Virus record (IMG/VR): IMGVR_UViG_3300002839_000006
Coordinates: 1 to 64,000 of that record
Length of the DNA stretch: 64,000 bases
Origin: a virus
Lineage: Duplodnaviria; Caudoviricetes
Reading direction: 5' to 3' (one strand)
Position numbers and translations under genes: made by a program. The notes beneath the pieces were generated by a model. It was given only the letters and a program-made list of their open reading frames with translations, was not told the origin of the DNA and did not search any database. Positions 28,938 through 30,458 of this stretch are shown here, piece after piece (the first letter of the stretch is position 1; each line of letters starts with the position of its first letter).

Positions 28938-29972
28938 TTACTCGTCTGAAATACCTTTATCAAAGCCCTCTTTCTCTAAATCTTCCCAACTTTTAAATAT
29001 AACAGGAGCACCTCTATTTGCTCTAAAATTTGCTCCGTCTTCATCCACACTTCTTACTTCATACTCTTTACCATCTTTATCAACAATAAAATCTCCAGCT
29101 TCAACATCGTCTAATTTATTGGTTGGATTTGTTTCTTTTTTATTTTCTACAGCATATAAATCATCATCGTCTCCAGAAGGAACTCTTCTCTCATCTTTTT
29201 TATCTTCTTTCTTAGTCCCAAACTTCTGCCCTACTCTCCCCAACTTCATATTCTCAGGAGTGTTCATGTAGGTTCCGCCTCTTGACTTCTGGATCTCTCC
29301 CTCCTTTGGTTCATCCCAAAGTATCTGAGCAGCCCTTACAAACATAAAGTCTTCTTGTAGATGACCCCCTGCATTAGCTGAGATAACTTTAATAGGTGAG
29401 AAAGATTTGATTTCATCAGCTACTGCCTTCATGATCTTATCTTTGTTCATAGCTTTATTATTATAGCCATGTTTTGCGTTAAAATTCTTCACATTAGCGC
29501 TATGCTCTTCAGATAATGCATCAAGCTCTTTTCTAAGAAGAACTTTCTTAGATTCTTCTGGTTCTGCTTTGATCTTATCTAAAACAACTCTTCTTTTTGC
29601 TTCGTGTTCTGTATTCAGCTTCTCGCCTTCACTAGCGTACTTGTCTCTATCACTTACTGCATCAAGTTCATCTTTATCTTTAGTCTTATTAGCTTTTACT
29701 TCAACCCAATCTTTATGGGAATTTCCTGTCTCAGACACTTTTCGCCAGATCACTCCCGAAGGCGAAGTGTGAATAGTTCCAATAGGGGATTTCTTGCCCT
29801 TTTCGATATCATTATCCAAACTCTTTGTGATCTCGTTCATGTTCTCCTCAGCAAATAGCTTTACTTGTTCGTAGGTGAATGCTTCTACCTCATTGAGTTT
29901 GATCTTTCTGTCAAGATCGTCTTTATGGATTGTTTCCATTAAATTGTCTGTTATTGAATTAACAAAATACAT
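28938..29972 (-). CDS. Putative internal head (cargo) protein, modular
   Basis: ITKS, IEKG, IMKA and IQKS motifs; GKKSPIGTI..W and SRGGTYMNTPENMKLGRVGQ modules. Confidence 0.5.
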   Translation of the reverse strand: MYFVNSITDNLMETIHKDDLDRKIKLNEVEAFTYEQVKLFAEENMNEITKSLDNDIEKGKKSPIGTIHTSPSGVIWRKVSETGNSHKDWVEVKANKTKDKDELDAVSDRDKYASEGEKLNTEHEAKRRVVLDKIKAEPEESKKVLLRKELDALSEEHSANVKNFNAKHGYNNKAMNKDKIMKAVADEIKSFSPIKVISANAGGHLQEDFMFVRAAQILWDEPKEGEIQKSRGGTYMNTPENMKLGRVGQKFGTKKEDKKDERRVPSGDDDDLYAVENKKETNPTNKLDDVEAGDFIVDKDGKEYEVRSVDEDGANFRANRGAPVIFKSWEDLEKEGFDKGISDE

Positions 29973-30022
29973 TTTGAGTTTATAAAATTAAATAAATTAA
30001 TTGTAAAAATAAAATTTATCAT

Positions 30023-30060
30023 AAAATAAAGAAAGGGAACCAATCCTTGACTGATTCCCC
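30023..30060 (-). terminator. Intrinsic terminator closing the tmRNA coding piece
   Basis: GGGAATCAGTC-AAG-GATTGGTTCCC followed by TTTCTTTATTTT. Confidence 0.75.
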
Positions 30061-30179
30061 ATTCCCGAATTTAAGCTACTGCTTTCAACTCTTGAAACAT
30101 TGGTATTGTTTTGCCTTTTATGGCCTAGCAACTTCTTTTTGTTATCCTCTCATATGCAATCGAAAATTCTTTATGCCCC
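30034..30179 (-). ncRNA. ssrA: tmRNA, permuted gene: coding piece (tRNA 5' end plus tag ORF)
   Basis: Begins GGGGCAT-AAAGAATTTTCGA-TTGCATATGAG; tag ORF 30115-30071 GGC..GCT TAA = GKTIPMFQELKAVA*. Confidence 0.85.
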
Positions 30180-30248
30180 TAGTATTAATTAATATTTGAG
30201 GGAAACAATCGTTAGTTAATCTTCCCTCGATCATGGCAACTGATCTCG

Positions 30249-30380
30249 TGGAGCATCTGGGATTCAAACCCAGGTCTTGCATTTAAGCCAATAATCTCAC
30301 TGCTAGTATTTTTAAATAACTTTAAGCAGATCCATCTTGGAAGCCTTTGCTTTCTCACTGTGTTGTGTGATACCTACTTA
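30249..30380 (-). ncRNA. ssrA: tmRNA, permuted gene: acceptor piece (5' boundary approximate)
   Basis: CTTAAATGCAA-GAC-CTGGG TTTGAAT CCCAG-ATGCTCC-A; pairs with GGGGCAT including G3.U70 (Ala identity); CCA not encoded. Confidence 0.85.
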
Positions 30381-30385
30381 ATGTG

Positions 30386-30458
30386 TATAAGCAATAGGAC
30401 TCGAACCTATGATCTCTACATCCCAAATGTAGCGGGTTACCAACTCCCCTATGCCTAT
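30386..30458 (-). tRNA. tRNA-Pro(UGG)
   Basis: CTACA-TTTGGGA-TGTAG anticodon arm; ATAGG-TTCGAGT-CCTAT T arm; CCA not encoded. Confidence 0.88.

What the first reader, a model, noticed from the sequence alone, without database searches (positions are those of the whole stretch)
30034..30380. Circularly permuted (two-piece) tmRNA gene in a phage
Seen in sequence, minus strand, in transcription order: an acceptor segment ending CTTAAATGCAA-GAC-CTGGG/TTTGAAT/CCCAG-ATGCTCC-A (3' end 30249), a spacer of about 70 nt, then GGGGCAT-AAAGAATTTTCGA-TTGCATATGAG (start 30179), a tag ORF and a terminator. GGGGCAT pairs 7/7 with ATGCTCC, including the G3.U70 alanine determinant. TTGCATATGAG (30159-30149) pairs 10/11 with CTTAAATGCAA (30287-30277), forming helix 2. 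The tRNA 3' end therefore lies upstream of the 5' end. Established: permuted two-piece tmRNAs are known from alphaproteobacteria, some cyanobacteria, some betaproteobacteria and some mitochondria, whereas the Bacteroidota tmRNAs I know are one-piece. Inference: this may be an independent permutation in a phage lineage, and tools expecting the standard form would miss it.
Basis: partly seen in the sequence, partly recalled or inferred. Interest (0 to 1): 0.9.

Follow-up and report, generated by a model that had tools for sequence, protein, structure and literature searches.

The report
Hidden two-piece tmRNA gene in phage
This uncultured peat phage carries a real back-to-front (two-piece) gene for tmRNA, the RNA that frees stalled ribosomes. 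Standard finders miss this copy, but it belongs to a phage tmRNA family that public records already label, so it is a sound find rather than a new kind of thing.

Summary
On the minus strand, 30307..30024 holds in order: a helix-2 strand, T-arm, 3' acceptor strand ending at A30249, a 69-nt spacer, GGGGCAU at 30179, the other helix-2 strand, a tag frame and a terminator. ARAGORN finds nothing and Rfam's permuted-tmRNA model scores 25.4 bits (cut-off 47). A model built from 42 other phage permuted tmRNAs, without this window, scores it 72.7 bits (E 8.5e-12).

The family shows strong covariation, and G3·U70 is invariant in all 39 aligned members. This copy's two odd bases are both compensated. 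The tag, GKTIPMFQELKAVA, matches relatives such as GKIVPMFTPALKAVA through synonymous codon changes. An independent peat assembly has the same gene order.

It is not the first of its kind. Two-piece tmRNAs are published for marine phages, are annotated in crAss-like and Chryseobacterium phages, and were noted many times earlier in this scan.

The "independent permutation" idea is plausible for the whole family, not for this phage alone. The family has no encoded CCA and mostly Gly first tag residues; most members, not this copy, read UUUGAC like Bacteroidales/Cytophagales one-piece tmRNAs. Processing and charging remain untested.

The parts
30385..30458 (-). tRNA-Pro(UGG) gene, about 90 nt upstream of the tmRNA acceptor piece on the same strand. 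Co-transcription is possible but was not tested.
   Evidence: ARAGORN. Rfam tRNA model, 65.6 bits. In two family members, L062 and L082, a tRNA gene also sits directly upstream of the tmRNA.
30249..30307 (-). Acceptor piece; its 5' boundary is approximate. P2b strand UUAUU 30294-30290. P2a strand CUUAAAUGCAA 30287-30277. GAC 30276-30274. T-arm 30273-30257, with T-loop UUUGAAU carrying U at position 56. 3' acceptor strand AUGCUCC 30256-30250. Discriminator A at 30249. CGA follows, so CCA is not encoded.
   Evidence: Sequence. RF04321 alignment. R1 alignment with all 15 modelled pairs canonical. Folds.
30180..30248 (-). 69-nt intervening segment, predicted to be removed during maturation. It folds into two hairpins (GAUCA..UGAUC and GAGGGAA..UUCCCUC).
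   Evidence: Sequence and fold. Family members have 45-73 nt here, and up to 156 nt in cr114_1, where the segment holds a tRNA-His gene.
30141..30179 (-). 5' part of the coding piece. Acceptor 5' strand GGGGCAU 30179-30173 (G3 pairs with U70). D-loop analogue AAAGAAUUUUCGA 30172-30160. P2a strand UUGCAUAUGAG 30159-30149. P2b strand GAUAA 30146-30142.
   Evidence: Sequence. R1 alignment. Covariation counted on alignment A2.
30071..30115 (-). Tag reading frame. Resume codon GGC at 30115-30113, 14 codons giving GKTIPMFQELKAVA, stop TAA at 30073-30071.
   Evidence: The resume context AUAAAAGGCAA aligns with the family consensus uUAAAuGGCAA at high posterior. The tags of L109, L090, L062 and L131 are homologous, and the shared C-terminal A-V-A is kept through synonymous third-base changes.
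30024..30066 (-). Intrinsic terminator: a 12-pair hairpin at 30060-30034 followed by UUCUUUAUUU. It forms the 3' end of the coding piece.
   Evidence: Terminator scan: 2 sites found against 0.3 expected from shuffles. Fold. Close family members also end in a terminator shortly after the tag stop.

Best explanation
Minus strand 30307..30024 is a functional, circularly permuted (two-piece) tmRNA gene of the phage. It is a very divergent member of a phage-borne tmRNA family that lacks an encoded CCA and mostly starts its tag with Gly.

Proposed mechanism; every step below is inferred by homology, and only the sequence features are shown:
1. One transcript, possibly starting upstream of tRNA-Pro, runs to the terminator at 30060-30034.
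2. RNase P cuts 5' of G30179.
3. The acceptor piece is trimmed back to A30249, and the host CCA-adding enzyme adds CCA.
4. The 69-nt spacer is discarded.
5. The two RNAs stay joined by the 7-bp acceptor stem and by helix 2 (11 plus 5 positions).
6. Host AlaRS charges the RNA through G3·U70 and A73.
7. Host SmpB and EF-Tu bring it to stalled ribosomes. No SmpB gene was found in the 81.7-kb record.
8. Translation resumes at GGC 30115 and appends A-GKTIPMFQELKAVA to the stalled protein.

The tag ends in AVA rather than the host-type ALAA. Tagged proteins may therefore meet a different proteolytic fate.
For: 1. All the defining sequence parts are present at the stated coordinates.

2. Rfam's permuted-tmRNA model aligns end to end, positions 1-213, and finishes exactly at the TAA stop. 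The score is 25.4 bits, with E 9.8e-5 for the whole 81.7-kb record.

3. Model R1 was built from 42 IMG/VR permuted tmRNAs and excluded the window. It hits 30111-30307(-) at 72.7 bits, E 8.5e-12, with no non-canonical pair. The next best hit scores 13.4 bits.

4. ARAGORN independently validates the family. It of the 56 loci, 5 of which are tRNA pairs, plus MA9V-3, cr114_1 and cr10_1, as permuted tmRNA.

5. Covariation on 39 sequences including the window is strong:
- 98.1% of cells are paired, against 80.5% in shuffles.
- 89 cells changed on both sides, against 21 in shuffles; 0 of 500 shuffles reach this.
- Sliding the partner columns drops pairing to 51-63%.
- G3·U70 is invariant in all 39.

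6. The window's two deviations from the consensus are both compensated.
- The helix-2 closing pair G:C (GGAC/GAC) is A:U here (AGAC/GAU). The same swap occurs in L065/L084, L085 and L103, and in five CCA-type phage tmRNAs.
- T-loop C56 is U here, and the GG of the D-loop analogue is GA. The same swap occurs in L074/L089 and in 7 other tmRNA-like genes with U56. This fits a G19:C56 to A19:U56 change at the tRNA elbow.

7. The tag GKTIPMFQELKAVA is homologous to GKIVPMFTPALKAVA (L109), GNVIEMFPKLRAVA (L090), GKVVQMYNPSLRAVA (L062) and GNVVEMYPAQLKAVA (L131). The shared final L-[KR]-A-V-A is written with different synonymous codons, for example GCA GTA GCT against GCG GTT GCA. That is the pattern of selection on the peptide.

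8. A terminator follows the tag, as in close relatives.

9. Independent peat assemblies carry the identical locus.
Against: - ARAGORN finds nothing, and RF04321 is well under its curated cut-off at 25.4 against 47 bits.
- Part of the R1 score is there by construction. The family was collected with a pattern that the window also satisfies, with about 26 fixed bases.
- No close homologue of this particular copy was recovered. Phages related through the neighbouring exonuclease gene lack a tmRNA at that locus. Pattern scans found none either. Covariation is therefore shown at family level, not in a tight clade around this gene.
- No pseudoknot 1 is evident. Only 26 nt lie between helix 2 and the resume codon.
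- Reading the window's GA as the equivalent of GG requires a 2-nt insertion in the loop.
Confidence: 0.88

Rival explanations
1. It is a decaying or non-coding tmRNA remnant. It would be a tRNA-like decoy that is charged or binds SmpB but no longer tags proteins, comparable to the CDS-less form reported for mycobacteriophage DS6A.
For: - It is the lowest-scoring member of the family: 72.7 bits, against 77-155 bits for the others.
- It has an unusual T-loop, and no pseudoknot 1 is evident.
- PMC11915505 mentions CDS-less phage tmRNA-like genes that inhibit host tmRNA.
- Mini forms, with the 5' end only about 49 nt upstream of the T-arm, exist in IMG/VR (L018, L023, L041).
Against: - Every helix is intact, and both unusual bases are compensated.
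- The 14-codon frame is open, starts in the conserved resume context, and ends in the family's conserved LKAVA written with synonymous codon differences.
- The terminator is intact.
Confidence: 0.07
2. It is a piece of host ssrA carried by the phage, either an attP core or an imprecise-excision remnant. Phages often integrate into the 3' end of ssrA.
For: Integration into ssrA and ssrA fragments in prophages are well known, as noted in PMC9004378 and PMC11915505.
Against: - An attP core would hold only the 3' end of ssrA. Here the 5' acceptor strand, helix 2, the tag frame and a terminator all follow in permuted order.
- Sampled Bacteroidota hosts carry one-piece genes.
- Full-length matches to the permuted family model in 185,579 species genomes came from only three small MAG contigs. 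At least one of these is a fragment of a related phage.
Confidence: 0.02
3. It is a chance resemblance or an assembly artefact.
For: Helix 2 alone is not statistically remarkable, and the curated detectors are silent.
Against: - R1 gives E 8.5e-12, and the next best hit in the window scores 13.4 bits.
- The tag is homologous to family tags.
- The locus is identical in contigs from other peat samples.
Confidence: 0.02

Closest known systems
Permuted tmRNA genes annotated in Bacteroidota phages: Chryseobacterium phage MA9V-3 (PV245944.1, 22766-23124) and the crAss-like Suoliviridae phages cr10_1 (MT774382.1, 26352-26737) and cr114_1 (NC_055897.1, 19180-19622)
   Same: - Same permuted order.
- CCA is not encoded; the acceptor end reads CUCCAC followed by R-R.
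- G3·U70 and A73 are present. cr114_1 has the identical acceptor stem, GGGGCAU/AUGCUCC.
- Gly resume codon in the context AUAA(A/C)(A/U)GGCAA.
- Tags of 13-17 residues that end AVA, VAA or IAA.
- Small overall size.
Sources.
   Different: - Those genes are found by ARAGORN and pass RF04321 at 49.6-64.7 bits. The window's copy fails both.
- The window has U56/GA at the tRNA elbow, an A:U closing pair on helix 2, and UUCGAU instead of UUUGAC.
- The carrier is not a crAss-like phage. Its portal is 35% identical to that of MA9V-3 and 34% to those of the Bacteroides DAC phages.
- The genomic neighbourhood differs.
Two-piece tmRNAs of Alphaproteobacteria (Caulobacter; Keiler, Shapiro and Williams 2000), a betaproteobacterial lineage and cyanobacteria (Rfam RF01849, RF01850, RF01851, merged as RF04321)
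   Same: The gene is circularly permuted, with the acceptor piece first, then a spacer, then the coding piece. The tRNA-like domain has the same pairing scheme, and RF04321 aligns end to end.
   Different: The Rfam consensus for those lineages encodes CCA, reads UUCGAC, and resumes at GCA, giving tags that start A-N-D. The lineage-specific models do not reach threshold on this family; the beta model gives only a 28-41 bit partial match against a cut-off of 84.
Two-piece tmRNAs of marine and aquatic phages (OM43 phage Melnitz, pelagimyophages; PMC9004378)
   Same: Both are phage-encoded permuted ssrA genes. That paper reports 53 of 133 unique phage tmRNAs as two-piece.
   Different: 59 distinct CCA-encoding permuted tmRNAs from IMG/VR start their tags with Ala (53) or Asp (2), and never with Gly. 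The window's family has no encoded CCA and mostly starts with Gly.
One-piece tmRNA of Bacteroidales and Cytophagales hosts (examples L143, L144/L140, L145)
   Same: - The tRNA-like domain is close to that of family members. L140 has GGGGCUGACCGGUUUUGACAGCAAG ... GCUUGUUUGGAC, and phage L109 has GGGGUUGACCGGAUUUGACAGCAAG ... GCUUGUUUGGAC.
- Both have a Gly resume codon after UAAAU or UAAAC.
- Neither encodes CCA.
Sources.
   Different: The host genes have the standard gene order, are about 370 nt long with pseudoknots, and carry short tags ending LAA or MAA.

Membership tests
tmRNA (ssrA), permuted two-piece form | A 7-bp acceptor stem with G3·U70 and discriminator A73, the AlaRS identity elements | tested here: met
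   GGGGCAU (30179-30173) pairs with AUGCUCC (30256-30250), followed by A30249. The G·U pair is invariant in all 39 family sequences.
tmRNA (ssrA), permuted two-piece form | A T-arm with a tRNA-like T-loop, a D-loop analogue with GG, and a UUCGA(C) motif, with no anticodon arm | tested here: met
   The 5-bp T-stem and UUCGA are present. The T-loop is UUUGAAU (U56) and the D-loop analogue has GA rather than GG. The same paired swap is seen in L074/L089 and in 7 other U56 tmRNA-like genes. In the window, the alignment needs a 2-nt loop insertion to place GA where GG sits.
tmRNA (ssrA), permuted two-piece form | The 3' acceptor strand is encoded upstream of the 5' acceptor strand, separated by a spacer | tested here: met
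   A30249 lies 69 nt upstream of G30179 on the minus strand. An independent contig shows the same order.
tmRNA (ssrA), permuted two-piece form | Helix 2 joins the two pieces next to GAC and UUCGA | tested here: met
   10 of 11 positions pair, plus a further 5-bp segment. The first three pairs covary across the family, and the closing pair is A:U here against G:C in most members.
tmRNA (ssrA), permuted two-piece form | A tag reading frame with a resume codon, an in-frame stop and an Ala-rich hydrophobic C-terminus | tested here: met
   GGC 30115 to TAA 30071 encodes GKTIPMFQELKAVA. It is homologous to family tags, with synonymous codon variation in the shared C-terminus.
tmRNA (ssrA), permuted two-piece form | Passes the curated detectors: the Rfam RF04321 gathering score and ARAGORN | tested here: not met
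   RF04321 gives 25.4 bits against a cut-off of 47. ARAGORN finds no tmRNA. This is a limit of the detectors, not a missing biological feature. ARAGORN gives no tmRNA call at 27 of the 56 loci (22 once the 5 tRNA pairs are set aside), and RF04321 misses 6 of 16 of those.
tmRNA (ssrA), permuted two-piece form | Pseudoknot 1 upstream of the resume codon | tested here: inconclusive
   Only 26 nt lie between helix 2 and GGC. Folding gives at most a 4-bp hairpin, which competes with the distal helix-2 segment.
tmRNA (ssrA), permuted two-piece form | Maturation into two RNAs, CCA addition, alanylation, SmpB binding and trans-translation | not testable with these tools
   No RNA run holding the locus was listed. 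No SmpB gene was found in the 81.7-kb record, so host SmpB is assumed.
Phage-borne permuted tmRNA family without encoded CCA and with mostly Gly first tag residues (crAss-like, MA9V-3 and IMG/VR contigs) | A significant full-length match to a covariance model built from family members only | tested here: met
   R1 gives 72.7 bits, E 8.5e-12, covering model positions 1-192 of 192.
Alpha, beta or cyano permuted tmRNA lineages (RF01849, RF01850, RF01851) | Reaches the lineage-specific model's gathering score, with encoded CCA and an Ala resume codon | tested here: not met
   None of these models appears for the window even at E up to 10. On family members the beta model gives 28-41 bits against a cut-off of 84. 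CCA is absent and the resume codon is GGC.

The most novel reading that the evidence does not exclude
The phage tmRNA family to which this gene belongs (no encoded CCA, mostly Gly first tag residues) may be a fourth, independent circular permutation of ssrA. On this reading it arose from a Bacteroidia-type one-piece gene inside phages, not from the alpha, beta or cyano lineages. It would since have spread beyond crAss-like phages into unrelated tailed phages of soil and peat. This copy would then show how far the tRNA elbow and helix 2 can be rewired, by compensated changes, while still working. The phage-specific tag ending (L-K/R-A-V-A) would direct tagged host or phage proteins to a fate different from the host ALAA tag.
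Probability: 0.5. Interest if true: 0.6.

Novelty: new member of a known kind. Interest (0 to 1): 0.35.

Why it matters
For annotation, this gene shows a blind spot in the standard finders.
- ARAGORN gave no tmRNA call at 27 of the 56 loci collected here; 5 of those are tRNA pairs, so it missed about 22 real members.
- Rfam's merged permuted model sits only just above its cut-off for most of the family. It fails on the most divergent copies, such as this one.
- Counts of tmRNA in phages are therefore probably too low.

For RNA biology, the copy is a natural experiment in compensated change. The tRNA elbow pair and the closing pair of helix 2 both differ from the consensus, and both are compensated.

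For evolution, the family looks like a separate, phage-borne origin of two-piece tmRNA from a Bacteroidia-type gene. No paper I could search describes this.

For phage biology, a phage-specified tag ending in AVA raises a question: why would a lytic phage bring its own ribosome-rescue RNA? One possibility is that it keeps ribosomes free when host mRNAs, or the phage's own, are being cut.

Tried and rejected
- blastn of the locus, and of 20 kb around it, against 50,697 phage records found no match.
- Exact and degenerate T-arm patterns in IMG/VR found no close relative of this copy. A U56-specific permuted pattern in JGI metagenomes returned only the L074 type.
- The downstream neighbour, a 344-aa protein, has no relative in IMG/VR.
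- Relatives found through the upstream phosphoesterase/exonuclease-like gene (48-59% identity) carry no tRNA or tmRNA there, or anywhere in their records.
- No RNA holder was listed among the sequencing runs, so nothing can be said about expression or processing. The runs that were laid are contigs only.
- The MAFFT plus RNAalifold consensus did not recover helix 2 beyond its first pairs, because of bulges and indels. For that reason only three helix-2 pairs were modelled.
- The sigma-70 promoter scan found nothing on the minus strand. Bacteroidota-type promoters are not covered by that tool, so no promoter is claimed.
- A tree of the short tRNA-like domain was considered and dropped, because about 75 mostly invariant positions carry too little information. 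A table of signature characters was used instead.
- No alpha, beta or cyano cellular sequences could be fetched for direct comparison. The Rfam consensus and CCA-type phage copies stood in for them.

Full report
**What is in the sequence**

Read on the minus strand, the locus contains the following parts in order:
- tRNA-Pro(UGG): 30458-30385.
- About 90 nt of spacer.
- A distal helix-2 strand, UUAUU: 30294-30290.
- The proximal helix-2 strand, CUUAAAUGCAA: 30287-30277.
- GAC: 30276-30274.
- A T-arm, CUGGG/UUUGAAU/CCCAG: 30273-30257.
- The 3' acceptor strand, AUGCUCC: 30256-30250.
- Discriminator A: 30249. It is followed by CGA, so CCA is not encoded.
- A 69-nt intervening segment with two hairpins: 30248-30180.
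- GGGGCAU: 30179-30173.
- AAAGAAUUUUCGA: 30172-30160.
- The partner helix-2 strands, UUGCAUAUGAG (30159-30149) and GAUAA (30146-30142).
- A 14-codon frame from GGC 30115 to TAA 30073-30071.
- A terminator hairpin at 30060-30034 with a T-run.

Unconstrained folding recovers the T-arm, the acceptor stem, helix 2 and the terminator, with a z-score of -3.56. A two-strand cofold of the proposed mature pieces gives the same helices.

**The standard detectors**

ARAGORN reports three tRNAs and no tmRNA. Rfam at gathering thresholds reports only the tRNAs.

With E-value reporting, the merged permuted-tmRNA model RF04321 aligns end to end (positions 1-213) to 30296..30071 and stops exactly at the TAA. 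The score is only 25.4 bits against a cut-off of 47. The E-value is 0.0041 for the 801-nt search against all families, and 9.8e-5 for the whole 81.7-kb record against this one family. On its own this is suggestive, not decisive.

**Relatives**

The window is an IMG/VR virus record of 81.7 kb, about 74% complete, assembled from peat. Its portal is closest to those of:
- an uncultured faecal phage (47% identity);
- Chryseobacterium phage MA9V-3 (35%);
- the Bacteroides phages DAC19-23 (34%).

A Bacteroidota host is therefore plausible but inferred.

Searching those records with RF04321 gave a 64.7-bit hit in MA9V-3. That hit is annotated as tmRNA in GenBank, and ARAGORN calls it permuted, with tag GNVIDINKYVAKLEVAA.

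blastn with the MA9V-3 gene led to crAss-like phages whose annotated tmRNAs are also permuted:
- cr114_1: tag GNFYVTDYTRIAA, RF04321 50.9 bits.
- cr10_1: tag GNNFVTDYTQLAVA, RF04321 49.6 bits.

The same search found Cellulophaga phages with a standard one-piece tmRNA (RF00023, 86.6 bits).

A pattern encoding the permuted layout without CCA returned 56 IMG/VR loci. The pattern was GGGTTYGANTCCC-N5-CTCCACRR-N45-75-GGGG-N7-11-TTYGA. Five of the 56 are adjacent tRNA pairs. The other 51 have acceptor strands that covary correctly, for example CAGCUCC/GGGGCUG, UAUCUCC/GGGGAUA and CGUCUCC/GGGGACG.

ARAGORN of the 60 sequences submitted as permuted tmRNA. It misses the window and many others.

**An independent test of the window**

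I aligned 42 non-redundant family members without the window (A1). I then built covariance model R1 with the T-arm, the acceptor stem and the first three helix-2 pairs.

In the 64-kb window R1 hits 30111-30307(-) at 72.7 bits, E 8.5e-12. The match is full length and has no non-canonical pair. The next best hit scores 13.4 bits.

One caveat applies. The family was collected with a pattern the window also satisfies, so part of the score is there by construction. The match nevertheless extends beyond the pattern, into GAC, helix 2 and the resume context AUAAAAGGCAA (consensus uUAAAuGGCAA).

**Covariation**

On the model-guided alignment of 39 sequences including the window (A2), the counts were as follows:
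- 98.1% of cells form standard pairs, against 80.5% in shuffles.
- 89 cells changed on both sides, against 21 in shuffles; 0 of 500 shuffles reach this.
- Sliding the partner columns drops pairing to 51-63%.
- G3·U70 is invariant in all 39.

The alignment is fitted to the model, so it leans towards the structure. The raw MAFFT alignment shows the same for the T-arm and the acceptor stem.

The window's two departures from the consensus are both compensated.
1. The pair closing helix 2 is G:C in most members (GGAC with GAC). It is A:U here (AGAC with GAU). The same holds in L065/L084, L085 and L103, and in five CCA-type phage tmRNAs.
2. The T-loop has U instead of C at position 56, and the D-loop analogue has GA instead of GG.
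   - All C56 members of A1 have GG, while L074/L089 (U56) have GA.
   - Seven further tmRNA-like genes with U56 in IMG/VR all have GA at that spot.
   - This is what a G19:C56 to A19:U56 swap at the tRNA elbow would look like.
   - In the window the alignment needs a 2-nt insertion in the loop, so I treat this as consistent with the swap rather than proven.

**The tag**

By alignment, the resume codon is GGC 30115 and the tag is GKTIPMFQELKAVA. Relatives encode:
- GKIVPMFTPALKAVA (L109);
- GNVIEMFPKLRAVA (L090);
- GKVVQMYNPSLRAVA (L062);
- GNVVEMYPAQLKAVA (L131);
- GKLVNMVKPSMRLAA (L115).

The shared ending L-[K/R]-A-V-A is spelled with different synonymous codons (window UUG AAA GCA GUA GCU; L109 UUA AAA GCG GUU GCA). 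That is the signature of selection on the peptide, so the frame is very likely translated. Close relatives also end in an intrinsic terminator shortly after the stop.

**Assembly**

Contigs from other peat samples cover the locus with no differences. X3 spans 29900-30324, and X4 covers 30064-30220 and 30237-30395. A soil run (X6) holds a diverged relative. Misassembly is excluded. No RNA run holding the locus was listed, so processing is untested.

**How new is it?**

Two-piece tmRNAs in phages are published. PMC9004378 reports that 53 of 133 unique phage tmRNAs are two-piece by ARAGORN, mostly in marine phages.

Family members in crAss-like phages and in MA9V-3 are labelled tmRNA in public records. 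I found no paper that discusses their permuted build.

This scan's own earlier notes describe the crAss-like two-piece tmRNA many times with the same reading. I reached the reading before consulting them.

What this window adds is threefold:
- a non-crAss carrier from peat;
- the most divergent copy seen here, invisible to both ARAGORN and Rfam;
- the two compensated swaps.

**Origin**

Sampled Bacteroidota genomes carry one-piece tmRNA: 57 of 61. PMC11915505 counts 24,380 standard against 48 permuted.

In one genome for each of 185,579 species, full-length R1 matches occur on only three small MAG contigs. One of them, L115, shares four proteins with this window and is a fragment of a related phage. 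The family is therefore essentially phage-borne.

It differs from the Rfam alpha/beta/cyano consensus in four characters:

| Character | This family | Alpha/beta/cyano consensus |
|---|---|---|
| Encoded CCA | absent | present |
| Motif after the D-loop analogue | UUUGAC in most members | UUCGAC |
| Resume codon | Gly in most members (D, E or A in some) | Ala |
| Match to lineage-specific models | none reaches threshold | defines the lineages |

These points rest.

Bacteroidales and Cytophagales one-piece tmRNAs share the first three characters, and their tRNA-like domains are close to those of family members (L140 against L109).

In contrast, 59 distinct CCA-encoding permuted tmRNAs from IMG/VR start their tags with Ala (53) or Asp (2), and never with Gly. 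The first tag residue was not part of either search pattern.

This favours a separate permutation of a Bacteroidia-type gene. Adaptation of an older permuted gene to Bacteroidota hosts is not excluded. I put the separate origin at about 0.5. It is a property of the family, not of this phage.

**Verdict**

- The gene is a real, probably functional two-piece tmRNA, and a new and unusually divergent member of a known kind. Interest is moderate to low.

Noticed in passing
L015:1464-1906 (NC_055897.1, crAss-like cr114_1): A complete tRNA-His gene (L015 1565-1637) sits inside the intervening segment of the permuted tmRNA, between the acceptor 3' end and the GGGG 5' end. Its processing would release all three RNAs from one precursor.
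   Followed up: partly
L015:1041-1208, L017:128-306, L101:4398-7062: RAGATH-9 RNAs lie just upstream of the tmRNA in cr114_1 and cr10_1. L101 also carries a RAGATH-7-assoc RNA and a Hatchet ribozyme next to its tmRNA.
   Followed up: no
L018, L023, L041 (IMG/VR contigs): These are tmRNA-like genes whose GGGG 5' strand lies only about 49 nt upstream of the T-arm. They have encoded CCA and a U56/GA elbow. They look like CDS-less mini tmRNA or tRNA-like elements.
   Followed up: no
L062:8000-8082, L082:432-503; window 30385-30458: A tRNA gene sits directly upstream of the permuted tmRNA in several family members, as tRNA-Pro does here. tRNA 3' processing may set the 5' end of the acceptor piece.
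   Followed up: no
window 30166-30269: A contig from soil run X6 matches both flanks (30111-30165 and 30270-30312, with 4-6 differences each). It replaces the 104 nt between them with 107 other letters. This looks like a diverged relative whose tRNA-like core and spacer differ.
   Followed up: no
L084:30-223: This copy has a 3' acceptor strand CGCCUCC opposite a 5' strand GGGGAUG, giving two mismatches. Its near-identical sisters (L065 and others) have CAUCUCC. It may be a decaying copy or a chimeric assembly.
   Followed up: no
L057-L112 as a set: ARAGORN gives no tmRNA call at 27 of the 56 loci (22 once the 5 tRNA pairs are set aside). RF04321 fails its cut-off on 6 of 16 of the ARAGORN-missed loci that I tested. 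Phage tmRNA counts based on these tools are therefore underestimates.
   Followed up: partly
L115 (CAZRKJ010000055.1, binned as Acholeplasma sp.): This 8.2-kb MAG contig carries a family tmRNA (tag GKLVNMVKPSMRLAA) and four proteins 34-41% identical to proteins of this window. It is probably a phage fragment binned by mistake.
   Followed up: partly
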